Shown here: positions 17,201 to 36,607 of the stretch, one piece after another
Layout: every line of letters begins with the position of its first letter
How positions within the stretch are numbered: the first letter of the stretch is position 1
DNA from: a virus
Strand: one strand, 5' to 3'
DNA: 36,682 bases
Virus record (IMG/VR): IMGVR_UViG_3300006217_000225
The notes under the pieces: generated by a model
The model's input: only the letters and a program-made list of their open reading frames with translations
Databases searched by the model: none
What the model was told of the DNA's origin: nothing
Translations under genes and position numbers: made by a program

Positions 17201-17202
17201 GG

Positions 17203-18111
17203 CTACTTGCCGGCGGCCTTGGCGGCGGGCGCGGTCTTGAGCACGGCGATGCCCTTGGGGTCGAGGATCGCGTACGAGTAGATCGCTTCGGTACGGTAGG
17301 CGATCTGGTTGTAGCCCTTGAGGTCCTTGCCACTGCCGTCGGGATCGCCGTATTCGATGATCTCGCTCCAGATGTCACGCACCATGCCCCATTTGATGAG
17401 GCTGAAATCGCCGAGGAACGCGAGCACGTTGGTCGGGGTGTCGGTGATGAGACGGCCGTTGACGGTTCCGGATGTCGACGCCGGGATGCCATCGAGGCTG
17501 CCCACCTTCAGGTTGAGCGGAATCTCGGGGTAGAGACGCTGCATCGTGTCCTTGATGCGGATGCGACGCAGTTCGTTCGTCATCGTCTTGCTCATCGCGA
17601 TGCCGTTGATGTCATACTCGTCGTTAACGGCCTCGGCCAACGCGTCGATGTCGGCCACACGGTCGGTGGTCGCGGTGACCTGCGCCGCCGTGTCGGACAG
17701 CTTCGTGAACCCGGCGAGCGTCGTCTTCTTCTTCGGGTCGAACGCGTGGTAGACCACGTAGTCGAGCACACGGCCCAACGCCGCCGCCTGGTCGGCCTGG
17801 ATCTTGCTGATGATCTCAAGGCGCGCATCGTCGTCGGCGAAACGCAGTTCGTCGGTGACTCGTGTCGTGGTCTGCACCTTGAAGCGCTTGCCGACGACCG
17901 GGCTGAGTGTCTCCTCGTACGAGGACTTCTGCTCGCCTTCGGCGATGACCTCGGCCTCCGCGTTGCCGGAGAACACCATGTAATCCTTGTCGAGGAACAA
18001 CTGCGGTTCGCTCGGGCTGAGCGCCGCGATGGTCGACGTGTCCTTCGCCTTCTTCGTGATGACGGTCGCCACTTCCTTCGGAAGCAGCACCTTGTCGGTC
18101 TGCAATGCCAT
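17203..18111 (-). CDS. Major capsid protein (HK97-fold type)
   Basis: 302 aa after the scaffold gene. AGGAG RBS. Typical size and position. Confidence 0.8.
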   Translation of the reverse strand: MALQTDKVLLPKEVATVITKKAKDTSTIAALSPSEPQLFLDKDYMVFSGNAEAEVIAEGEQKSSYEETLSPVVGKRFKVQTTTRVTDELRFADDDARLEIISKIQADQAAALGRVLDYVVYHAFDPKKKTTLAGFTKLSDTAAQVTATTDRVADIDALAEAVNDEYDINGIAMSKTMTNELRRIRIKDTMQRLYPEIPLNLKVGSLDGIPASTSGTVNGRLITDTPTNVLAFLGDFSLIKWGMVRDIWSEIIEYGDPDGSGKDLKGYNQIAYRTEAIYSYAILDPKGIAVLKTAPAAKAAGK

Positions 18112-18144: not shown

Positions 18145-18630
18145 TTACTTGTCTTCGCCGAACAGTCGCGACACCCACGCCTTGGCCTCTTCGTCGGCGG
18201 TCCTGCCGGAAGGCTGCTTGGCCGGGTCGCTGACATGGGGCAGTTTCGGGTTCGGGTGCAGCAACGGTTCGAGGGACGCGGCATGCGCCTCGATCTCCTC
18301 CAGACTCGTGCCGCGTAGCACATCGGCCGGCACCCCGGTCTTCTTCGCGACCTGCGCACGCCATTGCTCCTGCTGTTGTGCGGCCTTGTATCCGGCGTTC
18401 TCCTGCTCGAGCTCGGCGATACGCTTGGCGGTCTTCTCCGCGTCGCTCATCTGCGCTTCCTTGAGCTTCTTGAGCTCCTCGGAATCAGCGAAGCTGGCCT
18501 TGGCGCGGTCCTCCCATTTGCGTGACTGGGCGACCGCCTCCCTGTATTTCGCCTCCCAGTCCGTGGGGTCGTCCTGCGTGCCCTGCGGCTCGTCGACGTT
18601 CTCGTTCTGGGGTCCTGTGTCGTCTGCCAT
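18145..18630 (-). CDS. Capsid scaffolding protein
   Basis: 161 aa, highly charged and helical (EELKKLKEAQMSDAEKTAKRIAELEQENAGYKAAQQQEQW). Lies immediately upstream of the capsid gene. Confidence 0.75.
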   Translation of the reverse strand: MADDTGPQNENVDEPQGTQDDPTDWEAKYREAVAQSRKWEDRAKASFADSEELKKLKEAQMSDAEKTAKRIAELEQENAGYKAAQQQEQWRAQVAKKTGVPADVLRGTSLEEIEAHAASLEPLLHPNPKLPHVSDPAKQPSGRTADEEAKAWVSRLFGEDK

Positions 18631-18665
18631 GTCGGCTCCTGTTCTCTTGGGCCCATGCGGGCATG

Positions 18666-18691
18666 AAAAAAGCCCGCCATGCGACGGGCTT
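18666..18691 (-). terminator. Intrinsic terminator (second of a tandem pair)
   Basis: The minus strand reads AAGCCCG-tcgcatgg-CGGGCTT followed by TTTTT. Confidence 0.75.
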
Positions 18692-18694
18692 CAG

Positions 18695-18735
18695 TGGACT
18701 GCACCGGAATCGAACCGGCATCGACCTTCCAGTCC
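18695..18735 (-). ncRNA. tRNA-like acceptor-stem + T-arm minihelix (no D or anticodon arm)
   Basis: The minus strand reads GGACTG-gaaggtcgat-GCCGG-TTCGATT-CCGGT-g-CAGTCC-A. This gives a 6-bp acceptor-like stem, a canonical T stem-loop and discriminator A. The two soluble arms of a tRNA are replaced by a linker of about 9 nt. Confidence 0.45.
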
Positions 18736-18740
18736 TATGC

Positions 18741-18766
18741 AAAAGGCCTCCGATTACGGAGGCCTT
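18741..18766 (-). terminator. Intrinsic terminator after the 83-aa ORF (first of the tandem pair)
   Basis: The minus strand reads AAGGCCTCC-gtaatc-GGAGGCCTT followed by TT. Confidence 0.7.
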
Positions 18767-18774
18767 GCGTTGTC

Positions 18775-19026
18775 TCATTGATTCGCGAGTGGATACTCGT
18801 CTTTTGATCTCCCATAGAAGATGCACCAGCAGAGCCATCGGTACAGCTCTTCATCAGAGACATCGATGGAGGTGTCCTCGATATTGAGAAACGGTTCATG
18901 AAACTTGCTGTGGTACACTATCGACGCGTTTCCGATGGCATTTTGTAACGTATTCCCGTCACGGCCATCGGCGAGAAACTGTTCAAAACTATCAGTGCGA
19001 GCAGCGTCAAGTCCAGAGTTTTTCAT
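18775..19026 (-). CDS. 83-aa AT-richer ORF translationally coupled to the MuF-zincin gene; candidate immunity/partner protein
   Basis: ATGA start/stop overlap at 19023-19026. G+C is 51/100 at 18781-18880. No motif recognised. Confidence 0.6.
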   Translation of the reverse strand: MKNSGLDAARTDSFEQFLADGRDGNTLQNAIGNASIVYHSKFHEPFLNIEDTSIDVSDEELYRWLCWCIFYGRSKDEYPLANQ

Positions 19027-20534
19027 GCCAGCATCTCCTTAACCATGGTATTGAATATTGTAACCGATTGCGGGAAGTACTGCTCTATCAGCTCATACGC
19101 CTTTGGATTCGCGAGCTGGGCGTCCATGATTTCCGCCCATGGTTCGGCGCAAGCGTGCATGAAATCGGAAAAATACTTCTTGGGATGACCGACCAATCCA
19201 GGATAGTCGTCACCCAACGCCACTTGCAGCATATCCTCGACATTCCGGTCAGTTTTCGCTGCAATCCCATTGATACGTATGGCTATATTCCGCATCGCAT
19301 CATCGTCATCAATTTCATTGCTGTTTTTCTCCCGTTCCAGAAGGCGACGTCCTTCGTTGCGGATTGATGTGCCGAACATCTGTTGGTACGAGTAGGGCAC
19401 GGCACCGCCAAGCAGCTGGTCGAGCATATGGGCGGTCTCATGGAACAGGTTCTGATATGGGCGGTGAGCGTCGTCGCCGGTGTAGATCTTCTCTAGGTCG
19501 AGGAAGATGCCTCCTTGCACTGGGGAGAAGTGCGGAGTTCCACCGAAGTTCCTGTCAAGAATCAGGTAATCCTTCGCGTACCGTGCCCATAGGCGTGCGG
19601 TGTCCGGGTGTTTTGACGCGTTGAGCATCATGTCGACGCGTAGCGCATGCTTCCTCCCTAACGTCTTGTACAGGTCACTTCCACGCGGTATGCGCAGTTC
19701 GGGATCCAGCGTGGACCCATCGGTGAGGTCGTGCGTGAACTGTTCGCGCATCCATGTTAGTACGTTCCGTGATGCTGTGCTTTCGTCGGCATCGTCGGCC
19801 ATGCGTTTCGCCGATTCGTACAGTTCCTTGTATTTGTCCGGGTCATATCCTGCGAGGGTCTGTTTGCCCCAGCTGGGGACCACACGGCAATGGCAGTCGT
19901 CATGGTATTTGTTGCCCTCGCCGCCGGCTGCCTCCTCACTGGTGTACGCGAAGCCTCGGGAAGCGAGCATGGTGCAGAACGCGCACGACTTGCCTTGTGG
20001 CACGCGCGCCCAGCTGGGCTTCGTGGGGTCACGGCGGATGCTGCGCTGTATCTGTGCGCGCAATGCGGCGGAGATCACGTCGCCGACGAACTGCTGTGCG
20101 TCGTCCACGTTGTCCATGCTTGGCCATAAATCGTCCATCGTCACGCCGAACTTGTTGCTTCCGCTCTGCACATCACGGAATTTCAGGCCGGGGTAATCGG
20201 TGTTCGCGACTCCGTGCACCGTCTGCCACAACACGCGGTCGAAATCCACCAGCCCATCGTCAGCGAACTGGGGGAACTCCGTGTCGGAGTATTCGCCCCA
20301 TGCCTGGCGCAGCAGATGGTGGTAATCCTTGGCGAGCTGGCTGGCGTCGGCCACGTATTCGCGCACGATCTCCTTGAGTGCCATATCGTGGCGGTTGATG
20401 GCGGTCTCGATCTCGTCGGTGGCCGCGTCGGTCAGGTTCTCGATGCTGTCCTGGTATTTTTTGTACGCCGCGTCGAGGATTCGCTGGAATTCATCGGCGT
20501 CGTCGGTGGGGACGGTCAGGTTGTTCAATGCCAT
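19023..20534 (-). CDS. MuF/SPP1 gp7-like head morphogenesis (minor capsid) protein fused to a C-terminal HExxH zincin-like domain
   Basis: Directly follows the portal gene. Cys/His cluster ARVPQGKSCAFC...HDDCHC (nt 19887-19985). Extra C-terminal domain (aa about 255-503) with FHETAHMLD (HExxH at 19428-19442). Confidence 0.7.
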   Translation of the reverse strand: MALNNLTVPTDDADEFQRILDAAYKKYQDSIENLTDAATDEIETAINRHDMALKEIVREYVADASQLAKDYHHLLRQAWGEYSDTEFPQFADDGLVDFDRVLWQTVHGVANTDYPGLKFRDVQSGSNKFGVTMDDLWPSMDNVDDAQQFVGDVISAALRAQIQRSIRRDPTKPSWARVPQGKSCAFCTMLASRGFAYTSEEAAGGEGNKYHDDCHCRVVPSWGKQTLAGYDPDKYKELYESAKRMADDADESTASRNVLTWMREQFTHDLTDGSTLDPELRIPRGSDLYKTLGRKHALRVDMMLNASKHPDTARLWARYAKDYLILDRNFGGTPHFSPVQGGIFLDLEKIYTGDDAHRPYQNLFHETAHMLDQLLGGAVPYSYQQMFGTSIRNEGRRLLEREKNSNEIDDDDAMRNIAIRINGIAAKTDRNVEDMLQVALGDDYPGLVGHPKKYFSDFMHACAEPWAEIMDAQLANPKAYELIEQYFPQSVTIFNTMVKEMLA

Positions 20535-20553: not shown

Positions 20554-22014
20554 TTATGGTTCGTTGGTTCCGCCACCGTGGTCGGTAGCGTCCTGTGGTG
20601 GTTCCTTTTGCGCATTGGTCTGCGCGCGCAGCTGGTCGAGTTGCTGTTTGGCGCGTTCGGATTGTTCCCAGGCGCGTTGCTCGCGGATCTCCTGCCAGCT
20701 CAGTCCGGCTTTGGACAGGCCCACGTCGGAGTTCGCGAAGCTTGGGTTGACTCCGGCGACCTTCGCGTAGTAATCGGCGCGTGCCGCGTCGCTGGTCTCC
20801 TTGGTCGGTGCCCACACCGGCCTGATGCGGTTGATGTCCTCGTCGGACGCGCCTTCCGCTATGAGTGCCATGCCGAGCGCGTCACGCAGCGCACGCCCGA
20901 AACGTAGGTTCTGCCGGTCGGCGGTGCGGCTGAGTTTGCGTTCTGCTTCTGCCATTGCCTCGGCCGAACCGGGGTTGTCCACCGTGATGCCCAGGTCGGT
21001 TGCGGGGATATCTGTCTCGGCGGCGACCATGAGTGCCACGGAGCGCAGCATGTCGGCGTGCGGCTGCATGCTTGCCTGCGACAATTGGCGCATCTCGGGC
21101 TTGTCGCCGTTCTTGCTGGCCGGCACACCGTTGATGACCTGCAGCAGCGAGCTCCACGTGTCGGGCGACACCTGTCCTTTGTTCGCGCCGAGGAACCAGA
21201 TGCGTGGCGCGGCGTAGAACTCGGCCGTTGCCTCCATGCGCACCAGGGTGCGCAACCCGAAATCGGTGAGCGCCATGAGCGGGCGTGTGATGCGGCTGGA
21301 ACCGAACGGGCGGTTGAGCTGCTCGTCATGGACGAACGGCACCACGGTGGGCCGGTCGAACCCGGTCTCCACCGGTTCGGCCACCCAACGGCCGAGGTAC
21401 GGGCCGGAATCACGGTGGCAATCCCACACTACATATGGCAGCCAGACACGGAACGCGGTGATGTAGCCGTGCTTGTCCTTGTCGGTGATTGTCAACGCGG
21501 CCTTGATGCGGTTATGCGTCCAATCCCATATGGCGGCCGACCAGTCCGCCGAGCGTGGTGTGATCAGCGTGCGCCCCTCATCGTCCAAGGACACTGTCAG
21601 GAACGCGCACCCATGCGTGTACGCCGACACGACGCACTGCGGCACCTTCACGTCCAGCATGCTCACATCACACAGGTCGTCTACGCGTGACTGCAACGAT
21701 TCTGGCGCATTGAATCCCTCGAACGTGGACAGGTCGGCGAGCGCGCGAACGGCCTTGTTCGGCCAGCCGATCATCGGTTTGGCCATGGCGCGCATGCTGG
21801 CGGGGATGGAGTAGGCGACGCCCTTGTACCCGTAGTGGGCCAGATAGTAGCCGGTGCGTAGCGTGTTGCGTGGGTAGTGTTTGCGCCATATGTTGAGTAA
21901 TTGCAGTGTGGTGGCCTGGCTGTCCGCGTCCATGCCTTGGATGGAGCCGATATGGGCGCTTTCCACGGCGAGGTAGCCGTTGTCCTGCGTGGTGAGGCCG
22001 GTGTCTAGTACCAT
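20554..22014 (-). CDS. Portal protein (SPP1 gp6-like)
   Basis: 486 aa from the ATG at 22014 (GGAGG RBS; overlaps the TerL end by 10 nt). The 128-aa Arg/His-rich upstream extension in the ORF track was discarded. Confidence 0.85.
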   Translation of the reverse strand: MVLDTGLTTQDNGYLAVESAHIGSIQGMDADSQATTLQLLNIWRKHYPRNTLRTGYYLAHYGYKGVAYSIPASMRAMAKPMIGWPNKAVRALADLSTFEGFNAPESLQSRVDDLCDVSMLDVKVPQCVVSAYTHGCAFLTVSLDDEGRTLITPRSADWSAAIWDWTHNRIKAALTITDKDKHGYITAFRVWLPYVVWDCHRDSGPYLGRWVAEPVETGFDRPTVVPFVHDEQLNRPFGSSRITRPLMALTDFGLRTLVRMEATAEFYAAPRIWFLGANKGQVSPDTWSSLLQVINGVPASKNGDKPEMRQLSQASMQPHADMLRSVALMVAAETDIPATDLGITVDNPGSAEAMAEAERKLSRTADRQNLRFGRALRDALGMALIAEGASDEDINRIRPVWAPTKETSDAARADYYAKVAGVNPSFANSDVGLSKAGLSWQEIREQRAWEQSERAKQQLDQLRAQTNAQKEPPQDATDHGGGTNEP

Positions 22015-23462
22015 GCCCCCTCCTCTCTGGTGGGGTCGCGTCTGCTGGTCATCGCGCCGTGCAGTGCGAGCGTGCACGCCACAAGCGGGCTGATGTCGGT
22101 GTCGTCGTCGGGGCGCTGCCAGCCGAACAATCCGTTTTTGCCGATCGCTCGTGAGGTGGCTTTGCGCGCGGCAGTCCATAATGGTTCCTGCCGTCGTTCG
22201 GGCAGGTGGGTGAGTGTGCCGTCGCGCAGCATGTCCTGGAAGCGTCCGCATGCTTTGCCCATGTCGGACGCGTTCGTCACCGTGACCGTGATGCCGGCGT
22301 CCTGCAGTTCCGGCATGAGGCTGACCGCCGGTGACTGCGCGTCCACGACCACGGCGGCTGCCTTGTCCCACACGCCGGCGAGCAGGTTGACGGCCCACAT
22401 GGTGCCGTCATGCCCGGTGTCTCGGTATTCGGCCAGTTCGATGTGCGCGGTGTCATCGTCGTAACGCATGCATGCGCCAATCGTCAACCGGGTGCGTGCC
22501 GGGTTCATGTCCAGTGCGAAGCTCATGACACCGCCGTCGCGACGCCGGTCGACAGTCGCTTCGTCCCATTTGGCTTGGTCGATGACGCTTGTCGTGCCGT
22601 GCTCGTCCCAGATTCCCAAAGCCTCACGGCGGAAATCATCCAAGGTCAGGCCGTCGTACAGTTCCAGGATCGCGTCACGGGTCGTATGCGTCGGATAGCT
22701 CGGGTTCGCCTTCGCCCACTGAGCCTCGTTCAACGGGTCGGCATCACGGTCCGCGCTGAACTCCACGTAGAAGGTCGAATGCGCGCGTCCCGCGCACGCT
22801 TTGGCCCGTTGGCGGGTGAACGCCTCGCCCATGTCATGCGGTCCGGGCGGCGTGCCCATGTAGATCGTCTGCGGATTGTAGGCGCGGTTCTGTGTGGGCA
22901 GCATGCTCGCCTTGGCCGCGTCCGACAGGATCTGCGCCTCATCGACCACGAGCAGCCCGACCTTCTTGAAACCACGCAGCGCGCCACGTTCACGGGCACG
23001 GAAGAAAATGCGGCTGCCGTTACGGAAGCGTATCTCCTCCTTGCCAGCGGCAAGGCTGATGCCATGCTCCGGGTCGACCAGATACCCCATCTCGGGGCGC
23101 AGCACACGTGAGCACATGTCCTCGAACGTGTCATGCAGGACACTGAAATGCTGCGCGGTCCACACAATACGAATGCCAGGAGCGCGGGCGGCCCGGTGGA
23201 TGGCGAGCCACTCGATATCGAACGTCTTGCCCGTCTGGCGTGGAATAGACAGCACACCGTTGCGTGCACACCAGAACCCGTCATCGTCCTTGGCCAGCAG
23301 GATCCGGTTGATCTGCCGCTGCCAGACATCGAACCGGTCACCGGCCACCCCTGCGAGCGCGTTCAGGCTCGGCTCGCCACTCGTCTTCATGCCTTCGGGC
23401 AGGATGCAACGGCTCGCACCGTCAACCAGCATCCCGCTCATCGTCATCTCCGATCGGCTCAT
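22005..23462 (-). CDS. terL: Terminase large subunit
   Basis: Walker A-like IPRQTGKTF. About 480 aa, located upstream of the portal. The true start may be the ATG at 23441, which has GGAG 6 nt upstream. Confidence 0.85.
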   Translation of the reverse strand: MSRSEMTMSGMLVDGASRCILPEGMKTSGEPSLNALAGVAGDRFDVWQRQINRILLAKDDDGFWCARNGVLSIPRQTGKTFDIEWLAIHRAARAPGIRIVWTAQHFSVLHDTFEDMCSRVLRPEMGYLVDPEHGISLAAGKEEIRFRNGSRIFFRARERGALRGFKKVGLLVVDEAQILSDAAKASMLPTQNRAYNPQTIYMGTPPGPHDMGEAFTRQRAKACAGRAHSTFYVEFSADRDADPLNEAQWAKANPSYPTHTTRDAILELYDGLTLDDFRREALGIWDEHGTTSVIDQAKWDEATVDRRRDGGVMSFALDMNPARTRLTIGACMRYDDDTAHIELAEYRDTGHDGTMWAVNLLAGVWDKAAAVVVDAQSPAVSLMPELQDAGITVTVTNASDMGKACGRFQDMLRDGTLTHLPERRQEPLWTAARKATSRAIGKNGLFGWQRPDDDTDISPLVACTLALHGAMTSRRDPTREEGAWY

Positions 23463-35429: not shown

Positions 35430-35452
35430 CCACATATTAGGGGTTGTTTCGT

Positions 35453-36607
35453 ATGGTGAATATCGCGAGCTATCAGACCAAGGCCGGCAAACGGTACCGT
35501 GTGCGCTACCGCAAGCCCGACGGCTCGCAGACCGACAAGCGTGGTTTCAAGCGCAAACTGGATGCGGAGACGTGGGCTGCCGAGCATGTCACCGTCGCCA
35601 AGGCGCGCGGCGAATACATCGACCCGCGTGACGGCAATATCACCGTGCGCCCGCTCTATGAGGCGTGGATAGCGAAGAAACGGATCTCTGCGAAGGAAAG
35701 CTACTACCACACGCTCGAGGGCGCATGGGCCGCGAACGCGGCTGACATGTGGGATTCTCGCCGTGTCAACACGATCACCCGTGAGGAGGTGCAGCGGTGG
35801 GCGGCGTCCATCTCGGACGGCACCGGCACGAGGGACGGCAGGCCGCGCAGCGCCACCGTCGTCATCAGGGTCGTGGACATGCTCGCCGGGATCCTCGATG
35901 ACGCGGTGTCGGACCGGCGCATACCGTCCAATCCTGCGCGCGGCATCGCCAAGCCCCGCAAACGCAAACGGCGGCACATGTACCTGACCGCGGCCGAGTT
36001 GTATGCGGTGGCCGATGGGGCGAAGTGGCGGCGGGACATCGTGCTCACGCTCGGGTTGTGCGGCATGCGGTGGGGTGAACTCGCCGCGCTGCGCGTGCGT
36101 GACGTCGACCTCGAACGCCACCGTCTGCACATCGGCGCGAGCGCGTCCACCGTCGCCGGCAAGGTCGTCGTCTCCGACCCGAAAACCTACGATGCGCGTA
36201 GCATCATGTACCCCGAGGCGCTCGACGCCATGATGCGCCGGAGGTGCGAAGGCAAATCGGATGACGATCTATTGTTCGATGCGCCGCACCGTCCGGGCGA
36301 GTACCTGTCGCTCGCCGACTGTCCCACGAGCCATGATGGCTGGTTCTCGGTCGCATTGCGGCGCGCGGGAATCGATAGGGGTCACATGACCGTACATGAC
36401 CTGCGGCACACGGCGGCGTCACTCATGGTGAGTGCCGGGGCGAACGTGAAGGCCGTGCAAAGGCAGCTGGGCCACCGGTCGGCGGCGATGACGCTCGACA
36501 CGTACGCGGACCTCTTCGACGCTGATCTGGACGACCTGTCGGCGGCCATGTCCGACATGCTCGCCCGTGAGCATGTGGGCAAAACGTGGGCAGACGGTGG
36601 TGCCTAG
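35453..36607 (+). CDS. int: Tyrosine integrase
   Basis: The N-terminal SAM-like/arm-binding region begins YQTKAGKRYRVRYRKPDG. The catalytic motifs are R...HDLRHTAAS...LGHRSAAMTLDTYADL. Ends at the att repeat. Confidence 0.9.
   Translation: MVNIASYQTKAGKRYRVRYRKPDGSQTDKRGFKRKLDAETWAAEHVTVAKARGEYIDPRDGNITVRPLYEAWIAKKRISAKESYYHTLEGAWAANAADMWDSRRVNTITREEVQRWAASISDGTGTRDGRPRSATVVIRVVDMLAGILDDAVSDRRIPSNPARGIAKPRKRKRRHMYLTAAELYAVADGAKWRRDIVLTLGLCGMRWGELAALRVRDVDLERHRLHIGASASTVAGKVVVSDPKTYDARSIMYPEALDAMMRRRCEGKSDDDLLFDAPHRPGEYLSLADCPTSHDGWFSVALRRAGIDRGHMTVHDLRHTAASLMVSAGANVKAVQRQLGHRSAAMTLDTYADLFDADLDDLSAAMSDMLAREHVGKTWADGGA
36575..36596 (+). repeat. Candidate integrase arm-type sites (P side), inside the int 3' end
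   Basis: gtgggcaaaac / gtgggcagacg are two phased 11-bp units. They match the 180-201 units in the same orientation. Confidence 0.5.

What the first reader, a model, noticed from the sequence alone, without database searches (positions are those of the whole stretch)
18775..20534. MuF-like head protein with a C-terminal HExxH zincin-like domain, coupled to a small AT-rich ORF: candidate virion-delivered effector or toxin/immunity pair in an actinophage
Seen in sequence:
- The 503-aa gene directly after the portal has the Cys/His cluster ARVPQGKSCAFC...HDDCHC. I associate that cluster with MuF-like minor capsid proteins.
- An additional domain of about 250 aa follows (aa about 255-503). It contains FHETAHMLD (HExxH, nt 19428-19442) and a later acidic AEPWAE motif.
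- An 83-aa ORF starts in an ATGA overlap with the MuF stop codon (19023-19026). Two tandem terminators follow it.
- By hand count, G+C is 50/100 at 19027-19126 and 51/100 at 18781-18880, against 68/100 at 17201-17300 in the capsid gene. The domain plus small ORF therefore look like a foreign cassette.

Established knowledge: MuF/SPP1 gp7-family proteins are virion components. They are a known chassis for variable C-terminal toxin/effector domains followed by immunity genes (MuF polymorphic toxins, polyvalent proteins), described mostly outside Actinobacteria.

Inference: this is such a module with an uncharacterised metallopeptidase-type warhead. It would be injected with the DNA to act on host defence or host proteins, or to act as a toxin.
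Basis: partly seen in the sequence, partly recalled or inferred. Interest (0 to 1): 0.8.

Follow-up and report, generated by a model that had tools for sequence, protein, structure and literature searches.

The report
Phage head protein–protease with partner
A Bifidobacterium prophage head gene fuses a portal-associated protein to a zinc-protease-like domain and is always followed by a tiny partner gene, a known kind of phage "toxin plus antidote" module that nobody has tested experimentally.

Summary
Every sequence observation was confirmed: the 503-aa gene after the portal, its Cys/His cluster, HExxH at 19428-19442, AEPWAE, the ATGA-coupled 83-aa ORF, two terminators and the G+C dip.

The window is a temperate Bifidobacterium (pro)phage. 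The N-terminal part (aa 1-273) is Pfam VG15. The rest is a confidently folded zincin-like domain (pLDDT 93.5). It has no Pfam or PDB match but belongs to a large family (961 clusters), almost always found at the C-terminus of MuF-type head proteins. HExxH, a following Asp, GH..Y and a Glu helix are invariant or nearly so.

In 134 of 136 loci examined, the zincin gene is directly followed by a member of one small acidic two-helix protein family, which includes this 83-aa ORF. The related phage PMBT6 keeps the N-domain up to "LTDG" but carries an unrelated C-domain and an unrelated downstream ORF. Orphan small ORFs also occur without any zincin.

This fits a MuF-type polymorphic effector with a cognate inhibitor or immunity protein, a kind already catalogued in silico. 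It is a new member, not a new kind. Function, virion delivery and target are untested.

Side finding: kilobase-sized pieces of this phage region sit between CRISPR repeats in Bifidobacterium genomes.

The parts
19023..20534 (-). 503-aa head-module gene: a VG15 (MuF-like) N-domain fused to a zincin-like C-domain
   Evidence: ORF list, translation, Pfam VG15 at aa 9-242 with E 5e-40, PHROG 13257/193
19716..20534 (-). N-terminal VG15 domain (aa 1-273) with a CxxC...HxxCxC cluster. It ends at the 'LTDG' junction, where homology to the PMBT6 protein stops.
19026..19715 (-). Zincin-like metallopeptidase domain (aa 274-503). Order of elements: helices, a three-stranded sheet, the HExxH helix, a variable helical insert, a GH..Y loop, then the Glu helix.
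   Evidence: AF2 pLDDT 93.5, pTM 0.90; family of 961 clusters; invariant residues
19419..19442 (-). Active-site motif HETAHMLD (H365, E366, H369, D372)
19131..19187 (-). GH(450)..Y(454) loop and the AE(464)PWAE(468) helix, the candidate third zinc ligand and transition-state residues
   Evidence: invariant or nearly invariant columns; helix 204-221 of the model
18775..19026 (-). 83-aa acidic small ORF (pI 4.5), translationally coupled by ATGA with its own AAGGAG. It belongs to the small-protein family that follows essentially every zincin gene.
18741..18764 (-). Intrinsic terminator 1 (GGCCTCCG-TAAT-CGGAGGCC-TTTT)
18695..18735 (-). tRNA-like minihelix: an acceptor-like stem plus a canonical T-arm, with no D or anticodon arm. 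Probably a decayed phage tRNA.
   Evidence: PMBT6 has tRNA-Tyr in the same slot
18665..18690 (-). Intrinsic terminator 2 (AGCCCGTCGC-ATG-GCGGGCT-TTTTTT)
20554..22398 (-). Portal gene (context). The true start is probably downstream of the listed GTG.
   Evidence: Pfam SPP1_portal, PHROG 104 at aa 147-605
18145..18630 (-). Scaffolding protein gene (context)
   Evidence: PHROG 9857, E 2e-40
17203..18111 (-). Major capsid protein gene (context)
   Evidence: Pfam Phage_capsid, PHROG 10

Best explanation
The two genes form a MuF-type 'polymorphic effector plus cognate partner' module of a temperate Bifidobacterium phage.

The N-domain (VG15, in the position of SPP1 gp7 / MuF) anchors the protein in the procapsid near the portal. 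A few copies would therefore be packaged and ejected with the DNA (inferred by analogy).

The C-domain is an active-looking gluzincin. After ejection it would cleave one or more host proteins in the newly infected cell, either to help establish infection or overcome a defence, or as a toxin against non-immune cells (inferred).

The 83-aa acidic two-helix protein is made in stoichiometric amounts by translational coupling. It would bind and silence or chaperone the protease in the producing cell. When present alone in a cell, it would neutralise incoming protease, which is immunity-like behaviour (inferred).

Shown here: the domain architecture, the conserved catalytic motif, the confident fold, the obligate gene pairing, the unit-wise swap in PMBT6, and the existence of orphan partner genes.
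For: - Position: the gene lies between portal and scaffold in a phage that has an integrase.
- Catalytic features: the zincin hallmarks are invariant or nearly so across 122 representatives, and the fold is confident, with a sheet, an HExxH helix and a Glu helix.
- Recurrent fusion: the same domain is fused to three different MuF-type N-domains, Phage_Mu_F in 38, Phage_min_cap2 in 18 and VG15 in 12 of 73 proteins.
- Gene pairing: a small-ORF family member lies immediately downstream in 134 of 136 loci. Seventeen of these loci were not used to build the HMM.
- Membership of the window ORF: E 6.7e-7 on the second HMM iteration, and 37% identity (E 8e-16) to the L040 ORF.
- Swap in PMBT6 (MCP 66% identical): homologous N-domain up to LTDG, unrelated C-domain, unrelated 105-aa acidic ORF, also in an ATGA overlap.
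- Other VG15 homologues in actinophages are annotated with ADP-ribosyltransferase or EndoU C-domains.
- Orphan small ORFs occur without a zincin, next to cas genes (L134) or in a prophage accessory region (L135). An orphan copy also sits beside CRISPR repeats in Bifidobacterium (L007-L009).
- Literature: MuF toxins are followed by small ORFs in 89% of cases and 20% carry metallopeptidases (PMC5576092). MPTases are hubs of injected polyvalent proteins (PMC5512222).
Against: - There is no experimental evidence for any member: no virion mass spectrometry, proteolysis assay, toxicity test or binding assay.
- Structural similarity to solved zincins is not significant (anthrax lethal factor E 3.7-6.6). 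Profile hits are weak (thimet oligopeptidase E 0.026).
- VG15 could not be tied to Phage_Mu_F by hhalign.
- The small ORF sits in the late operon, so it would not obviously be expressed in a lysogen. No promoter-like site was found.
- The partner family is conserved rather than hypervariable, which also fits a chaperone or assembly factor.
- One homologue has HKSSH instead of HExxH (P0006).
Confidence: 0.55

Rival explanations
1. Morphogenetic protease. The zincin acts inside the procapsid as the head-maturation or scaffold-removing protease. The small protein keeps it inactive until assembly, or acts as an assembly chaperone.
For: The PHROG families matching the N-domain are named 'head maturation protease', and SEA-PHAGES-type annotations call VG15 homologues capsid maturation proteases. 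No other protease is recognisable among the head genes. The gene lies between portal and scaffold. The domain is a conserved rather than hypervariable partner of MuF-type proteins.
Against: PMBT6 and most VG15 or MuF homologues, with homologous scaffold and capsid genes, lack the zincin or carry unrelated domains. It therefore cannot be required for head assembly. The 302-aa MCP has no obvious delta domain to remove. The 'protease' names attach to the N-domain, which has no protease motif. Orphan small ORFs outside head modules are hard to explain this way.
Confidence: 0.17
2. Self-processing peptidase, as proposed for polyvalent proteins. The zincin only cleaves its own polypeptide, for example at the LTDG linker, to release or trim the head protein before packaging or after ejection. 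The small ORF is a folding or packaging chaperone.
For: Iyer et al. propose autoproteolysis for MPTases of packaged proteins such as P1 DdrB (PMC5512222). A low-confidence linker (pLDDT 57-67) precedes the domain. The Asp three residues after HExxH matches one of their phage MPTase clades.
Against: There is only one other domain, so nothing obvious needs releasing. The same slot holds bona fide toxin domains in homologues. A dedicated, tightly coupled, acidic partner and its orphan copies suggest control of a harmful activity.
Confidence: 0.13
3. Inactive or structural domain. The zincin fold is retained as a structural or DNA/protein-binding part of the head protein, and the small ORF is an unrelated moron bounded by terminators.
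For: There is no significant match to characterised peptidases. One homologue has lost the catalytic Glu. The cassette has low G+C and terminators.
Against: HExxH, D, GH..Y and E are kept across hundreds of clusters. The small ORF is coupled to the zincin in 134 of 136 loci, so it is not an independent moron.
Confidence: 0.08

Closest known systems
MuF polymorphic toxins of temperate phages (Jamet et al. 2017, PMC5576092; Zhang et al. 2012, PMC3482391)
   Same: A head-module gene next to the portal, in a temperate phage. It has an N-terminal head-protein domain plus a variable C-terminal enzymatic domain and is followed by a small ORF. A metallopeptidase domain was reported in 20% of MuF toxins.
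   Different: The N-domain here is Pfam VG15, not Phage_Mu_F, and no profile link was found here. The zincin family matches no Pfam toxin model. The partner ORF belongs to one conserved family rather than being an anonymous 'small ORF'. No member has been tested.
Zincin-like MPTase domains of phage and plasmid polyvalent proteins (Iyer et al. 2017, PMC5512222)
   Same: An HExxH helix plus a downstream Glu helix, with an Asp three residues after HExxH as in one of their widespread phage clades. They are associated with packaged and injected proteins, including MuF.
   Different: This is a simple two-domain protein, not a 2-15-domain polyvalent protein. That paper describes no conserved small partner gene. 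Clade identity could not be checked because their alignments are not available here.
SPP1 gp7 / phage Mu gpF / 80alpha gp44 (portal-associated, ejected minor head proteins)
   Same: The same genome slot (portal, then X, then scaffold, then MCP), and the presumed packaging and ejection route.
   Different: Those proteins lack a zincin domain. Homology of VG15 to them was not shown here. This comparison rests on my own knowledge, not on a test.
Anthrax lethal factor / MtfA (M90) / Pro-Pro endopeptidase-type gluzincins
   Same: They give the best, though weak, structural and profile similarities: LF TMq 0.36-0.38, ATLF and M90 Pfam hits in 3 of 73 relatives, and PPEP/Zmp1 at E 0.05.
   Different: No match is significant. 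The domain has a long variable helical insert between the HExxH helix and the Glu helix, plus a distinctive invariant GH..Y(W/F) motif.
Bifidobacterium phage PMBT6, 433-aa protein AXF39317 plus 105-aa AXF39318
   Same: It is the closest isolated phage (MCP 66% identical). It has the same slot, a homologous VG15 N-domain up to LTDG, and an ATGA-coupled acidic downstream ORF.
   Different: Its C-domain (about 160 aa, HILYGLDKGGAHLHGYGW) and its downstream ORF are unrelated to the zincin and the small-ORF family. An intact tRNA-Tyr follows, where the window has only a tRNA-like remnant.

Membership tests
MuF polymorphic toxin system | N-terminal MuF-family head-protein domain | tested here: inconclusive
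   Pfam gives VG15 (E 5e-40) and no Phage_Mu_F hit. hhalign of VG15-type against Mu_F-type N-domains gives probability 0.2%. However, the same zincin is fused to Phage_Mu_F, Phage_min_cap2 and VG15 in the same slot, and depositors label VG15 homologues 'MuF-like'.
MuF polymorphic toxin system | Encoded in the head/packaging module of a temperate phage, next to the portal | tested here: met
   Gene order TerL, portal, this gene, small ORF, scaffold, MCP. Integrase at 35444-36607.
MuF polymorphic toxin system | C-terminal domain varies among homologues that share the N-domain | tested here: met
   The PMBT6 homologue shares aa 1-273 (35% identity) and then diverges completely. Adolin (ADP-ribosyltransferase) and Juicebox (EndoU) annotations point the same way.
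MuF polymorphic toxin system | A small ORF immediately downstream that changes together with the toxin domain | tested here: met
   ATGA overlap. Family-wide coupling in 134 of 136 loci. The PMBT6 ORF is unrelated (E 3.9 against 6e-7).
MuF polymorphic toxin system | Toxicity of the C-domain and its neutralisation by the downstream protein | not testable with these tools
   Needs expression experiments.
MuF polymorphic toxin system | Protein present in virions and delivered to the target cell | not testable with these tools
   Inferred only from gene position and analogy to SPP1 gp7.
Zincin-like (gluzincin) metallopeptidase | HExxH motif on an alpha-helix | tested here: met
   H365-E366-x-x-H369 lies in model helix 107-121. 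H/H are invariant and E is in more than 90% of 122 sequences.
Zincin-like (gluzincin) metallopeptidase | Third ligand Glu on a downstream helix | tested here: met
   E464 is invariant and E468 nearly invariant, both on model helix 204-221. The ligand role itself is inferred.
Zincin-like (gluzincin) metallopeptidase | Beta-sheet preceding the active-site helix | tested here: met
   Three strands at model residues 71-73, 81-83 and 88-90, before the HExxH helix.
Zincin-like (gluzincin) metallopeptidase | Significant sequence or structure similarity to a characterised zincin | tested here: inconclusive
   Foldseek against PDB gives nothing below E 1, with LF at E 3.7-6.6. The profile against PDB gives thimet oligopeptidase at 0.026, aligned on HExxH. 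Weak ATLF and M90 Pfam hits occur in 3 of 73 relatives.
Zincin-like (gluzincin) metallopeptidase | Zinc binding and peptide-bond hydrolysis | not testable with these tools
   Biochemistry is required.
Polyvalent-protein MPTase clade (Iyer 2017) | Asp three residues after HExxH and a conserved His at the end of strand 2 | tested here: inconclusive
   D372 is nearly invariant. The strand-2 residue is H335 in the window, but in relatives it is His or an aromatic residue (consensus A-x-Y-S-P).
Prohead (capsid maturation) protease | Membership of a known prohead protease family (S78/U35/S14/S49) | tested here: not met
   Neither this protein nor its head-module neighbours give such a Pfam hit. The PHROG label 'head maturation protease' attaches to the motif-less N-domain.

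The most novel reading that the evidence does not exclude
The small ORF family is a dedicated trans-inhibitor ('antidote') of a protease that phages inject with their DNA. Bacteria and resident prophages have captured orphan copies of it as a defence that disarms incoming phages. Some of these copies lie inside or beside CRISPR arrays, where kilobase-sized pieces of this phage region have been inserted, plausibly by spacer-protospacer recombination. This would amount to an undescribed effector/anti-effector arms race and an undescribed way for CRISPR loci to acquire phage genes.
Probability: 0.15. Interest if true: 0.8.

Novelty: new member of a known kind. Interest (0 to 1): 0.45.

Why it matters
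MuF-type head proteins carrying enzymatic C-domains are thought to be injected effectors or toxins. Only the nucleotide-pyrophosphokinase type has been studied, and no MuF-linked metallopeptidase has been characterised.

This work defines a large zincin family that is not in Pfam, with a confident model and a short list of invariant residues. It also shows that the family comes with one conserved small partner protein. Together these give a clean, testable two-gene system: co-expression, binding, catalytic mutants and substrate search.

If the protease targets host defence or regulatory proteins at the moment of DNA entry, it would be a widespread gut-phage counter-defence. It occurs in Bifidobacterium, Coriobacteriia, Lachnospiraceae and streptococci. 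The orphan partner genes would then be a matching host response.

Tried and rejected
- Direct annotation of the C-domain failed. Pfam, NCBIfam, PADLOC and PDB sequence searches gave nothing. Foldseek against PDB gave no significant match.
- Megablast of the region against phage genomes gave no match.
- The first genome-contig scan with the single protein found nothing.
- Foldseek of the small-protein model was uninformative, because a two-helix hairpin is too simple a query.
- A 'cysteine-switch' role for the conserved Cys of the small protein was rejected. Cys is replaced by Ala, Ser or other residues in about 30% of members.
- The idea that only the C-domain is swapped among the nearest zincin-bearing relatives was rejected, because N- and C-domains are equally divergent there.
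- A tRNA or att-site reading of the tRNA-like element was not supported. ARAGORN and Rfam call nothing, and there is only a single copy in the window. It did not align to PMBT6 tRNA-Tyr.
- No CRISPR repeat occurs in the window itself.
- The MAFFT alignment A8 misplaced the window ORF. It was replaced by A9 after an HMM check.
- The supplementary tables of PMC5576092 held as text did not reveal which metallopeptidase models the authors used.
Full report
**Context.** The window (61.9% G+C) is a temperate siphovirus-type (pro)phage. Read on the minus strand, it carries an endolysin, a 1983-aa tail protein, a tape-measure protein, tail and connector genes, MCP (17203-18111) and scaffold (18145-18630). 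Next come the 83-aa ORF (18775-19026), the 503-aa gene (19023-20534), portal, TerL and an HNH gene. These are followed by RecT/RecE-like and replication genes, and a tyrosine integrase at 35444-36607 on the plus strand. The closest isolated phage is Bifidobacterium phage PMBT6, with MCP 66% identical. Homologous modules occur in prophages of six other Bifidobacterium species and in Collinsella, Senegalimassilia, Dysosmobacter and Lachnospiraceae genomes.

**Observation.**
- The Cys/His cluster, FHETAHMLD (HExxH at 19442-19428) and AEPWAE are present.
- The small ORF starts in an ATGA overlap and has an AAGGAG ribosome-binding site.
- Two terminator hairpins follow it. The region folds better than all 200 shuffles.
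- The three hand G+C counts are exact.
- GC3 falls stepwise. It is about 0.8 in the flanking genes and the N-domain, 0.70 and then 0.58 across the C-domain, and 0.54 in the small ORF.
- A similar dip occurs in the same module of some related phages (L042-L045), but it is weak in others (L011).

**N-domain.** Residues 9-242 match Pfam VG15 (E 5e-40) and PHROGs labelled 'head maturation protease'. tblastn finds the N-domain, and only the N-domain, in 596 actinophage records. These are variously annotated as capsid maturation protease, MuF-like minor capsid protein, or fusions with ADP-ribosyltransferase or EndoU domains. The protein does not match Pfam Phage_Mu_F. My hhalign of VG15-type against Mu_F-type N-domains was negative. 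'MuF-like' therefore rests on position, on depositors' labels and on shared C-terminal partners.

**C-domain.** It has no Pfam, NCBIfam, PADLOC or PDB sequence match. A word-indexed search found only six relatives. A profile search of 1.84 billion representatives found 961 clusters at E ≤ 1e-3 and 411 at E ≤ 1e-10. Nearly all place the domain at the C-terminus of 500-700-aa proteins.
- Of 73 full-length members, 38 carry Phage_Mu_F, 18 Phage_min_cap2 and 12 VG15 N-domains. A few also carry ADP-ribosyltransferase domains.
- HExxH is present in nearly all members.
- Invariant or nearly invariant residues are H365, E366, H369, D372, D434, G449-H450, Y454, E464 and F466-A467-E468.
- AlphaFold2 with 122 sequences gives pLDDT 93.5 and pTM 0.90. 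The model has a three-stranded sheet, the HExxH helix, a variable helical insert and a Glu-bearing helix, which is the zincin core.
- Foldseek finds no significant solved relative. Anthrax lethal factor is the best meaningful hit at E 3.7-6.6.
- Foldseek against predicted viral structures finds two metagenomic 'minor capsid proteins' with TMq 0.62 and 0.77.
- A PDB profile search gives only weak zincin hits.
- One cluster (P0006) has HKSSH in place of HExxH.

**Small ORF.** On its own it finds only four close clusters. I therefore collected loci carrying zincin homologues from IMG/VR, GenBank phages and genomes.
- Every zincin gene is followed, within -28 to +27 nt of its stop codon (mostly ATGA), by a 49-93-aa ORF.
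- These ORFs share the motif Y-x3-F-G-E-x-F/Y-P ... D/E-E-x-I ... C-I/L-x4-P.
- An HMM built without the bifidobacterial members hits the L040, L032 and L011 ORFs at E 2e-6 to 2e-4. It also ranks the window ORF first among 490 window ORFs, at E 0.083.
- After one iteration the window ORF scores 6.7e-7. It is 37% identical (E 8e-16) to the L040 ORF.
- Overall, 134 of 136 loci have a family member directly downstream. This includes 17 loci not used in training. One of the two exceptions ends at the contig edge.
- The family is acidic (median pI 4.4) and has no Pfam or PDB relative. Its only matches are PHROG 29127, of unknown function, and spurious-looking OHCU_decarbox hits.
- Its core is predicted as a two-helix hairpin with pLDDT 85.

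**Modularity.** PMBT6 has, in the same slot, a 433-aa VG15 protein, an ATGA-coupled 105-aa acidic ORF, tRNA-Tyr, scaffold and MCP. Its protein aligns with the window protein over aa 1-273 at 35% identity, and the alignment stops at 'LTDG'. The rest of the PMBT6 protein and its 105-aa ORF are unrelated to the zincin and to the small-ORF family. Hence the C-domain and the downstream ORF are exchanged as a unit on a conserved N-domain.

Among zincin-bearing relatives with 80-82% identical MCP, the pattern differs. The N-domain (40%), zincin (40-47%) and small ORF (37-44%) are all far more divergent than their neighbours. The N-domain is actually closer (50-52%) to that of phages whose MCP is only 34% identical. 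The whole gene pair is therefore mosaic or fast-evolving.

**Orphans.** I also looked outward from the small-ORF side.
- L133, L148, L150 and L151 show the canonical arrangement.
- L134 has two tandem family members and a gp10-like fragment with no zincin, abutting a type II-A CRISPR array next to csn2-cas2-cas1-cas9.
- L135 has a lone member after the tail genes, next to an HTH regulator and a Ser/Thr kinase.
- Orphan copies are typical of immunity genes.

**Interpretation.** The best reading (confidence about 0.55) is a MuF-type packaged effector. Its warhead is an active gluzincin and its obligate partner is a small inhibitor or immunity-like protein. This kind of system has already been catalogued computationally. 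Zhang et al. 2012 described MuF-delivered toxins. Jamet et al. [quoted passage not shown] Iyer et al. 2017 identified the MPTase as the main hub domain of injected polyvalent proteins, with one phage clade carrying an Asp three residues after HExxH. I found no experimental study of any MuF-metallopeptidase.

The rivals are a morphogenetic or scaffold protease (0.17), a purely self-processing peptidase (0.13) and an inactive structural domain (0.08). The first is weakened because closely related heads are built without the zincin. The last is weakened by the conservation of the catalytic residues and by the obligate pairing.

**Novelty and score.** This is a new member of a known kind. What goes beyond the literature I could read is the delineation of this particular zincin family, which is absent from Pfam and has no solved relative. 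So do the finding that its downstream ORFs form one conserved family with orphan copies, and the LTDG swap point. Interest is 0.45. The system is worth a bench test but would not surprise a specialist.

**Side observations.** The tRNA-like minihelix between the two terminators (18695-18735) sits where PMBT6 has tRNA-Tyr, so it is probably a decayed phage tRNA.

More striking, pieces of exactly this phage region lie between CRISPR repeats (GTTTGCCCCGCATGCGCGGGGATGATCCG).
- Three independent metagenome assemblies hold a 1319-nt insert flanked by 12 and at least 4 perfect repeats. The insert comprises the zincin from KLGEAH, the small ORF and the start of the next gene.
- The isolate genome of B. 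pseudolongum subsp. globosum 2093B holds a 2170-nt insert collinear with window 19870-17884. It also holds an inverted 1040-nt insert and a third truncated small-ORF piece, each bounded by repeats.
- L007-L009 hold a roughly 355-nt piece carrying an intact small ORF, bounded by degenerate repeats.
- The phage encodes RecT/RecE-like proteins, so recombination through spacer-protospacer homology is a plausible origin.
- Assembly artefact is not fully excluded.
- My sampling is biased, because I only searched with this module.

Noticed in passing
L128 24-2253; L129; L130; L136 1099-6893 (B. pseudolongum subsp. globosum 2093B, NZ_RYUH01000014.1); L007-L010: CRISPR arrays (29-nt repeat GTTTGCCCCGCATGCGCGGGGATGATCCG, 61-nt period) contain phage inserts of 0.35-2.2 kb between repeats. 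The inserts are collinear with window 19870-17884 (MuF/zincin, small ORF, scaffold, start of MCP) at 69-87% nucleotide identity. They occur in both orientations and several times in one isolate locus. Spacer-protospacer recombination is possible, since the phage has RecT/RecE. Assembly artefact is not fully excluded.
   Followed up: partly
L134 3736-5360: Two tandem orphan small-ORF family members (69 and 59 aa) and an HK97-gp10-like fragment, with no zincin gene, abut a type II-A CRISPR array next to csn2-cas2-cas1-cas9. This is a second CRISPR type with a fragment of the same phage region at its array.
   Followed up: partly
L135 4001-4174: An orphan small-ORF family member (57 aa) lies after the tail genes, next to an HTH regulator and a Ser/Thr protein kinase gene. 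No zincin gene lies within 4 kb on either side.
   Followed up: no
window 18695-18735 (-): A tRNA-like minihelix lies between the two terminators (GGACTG...GCCGG-TTCGATT-CCGGT-gCAGTCC-A). It is conserved in L001 and L009, with an A-T replacing the G-T pair in the T-stem of L001. ARAGORN and Rfam do not call it. PMBT6 has an intact tRNA-Tyr in the same slot, so it is probably a decayed phage tRNA.
   Followed up: partly
window 19716-19727 (aa 270-273, LTDG): Homology to the PMBT6 protein stops at this conserved 'L/F-T-D-G-S' junction. It is also seen in P0002, P0006 and P0011, and may be the recombination point for swapping C-terminal cassettes, like VENN or PxxxxDPxGL in other polymorphic toxins.
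   Followed up: partly
P0006 (metagenomic homologue, 305 aa): A natural variant has HKSSH in place of HExxH, with the catalytic Glu replaced by Lys, while all other conserved residues are kept. It may be an inactivated member.
   Followed up: no
P0165, P0167, P0169-P0172, P0174, P0178, P0181: Several 57-72-aa small-ORF family members carry precomputed Pfam OHCU_decarbox (PF09349) hits, and JGI names them OHCU decarboxylase. This is almost certainly a misannotation of a short helical motif.
   Followed up: no
window 20554-22398 (-): The listed 614-aa portal ORF overlaps TerL (22005-23462) by about 390 nt. Its first 146 residues or so have no portal match, so the real start is probably well downstream of the GTG.
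   Followed up: no
window 18665-18764 (-): Two strong intrinsic terminators sit in the middle of the head-gene operon, between the small ORF and the scaffold gene. Terminator-like T-runs occupy the same place in L011-type phages. This implies read-through or antitermination, or separate transcription units.
   Followed up: no
window 19023-19334 and 18775-19026: GC3 falls in steps (0.80, 0.70, 0.58, 0.54) rather than at one sharp boundary. The most AT-rich part (the last roughly 100 codons of the zincin plus the small ORF) coincides with the piece found as an orphan beside CRISPR repeats (window 19052-18708, 81% identical to L007).
   Followed up: partly
L007 869-3125: Downstream of the CRISPR-adjacent orphan small ORF lies an array of paralogous small genes. 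There are three 77-80-aa (one longer) minus-strand ORFs sharing the motif 'F..M....L.P.T...EL..IY.KTGVYP' and two 95-aa plus-strand ORFs. They look like a cluster of further cassette or immunity-type genes.
   Followed up: no
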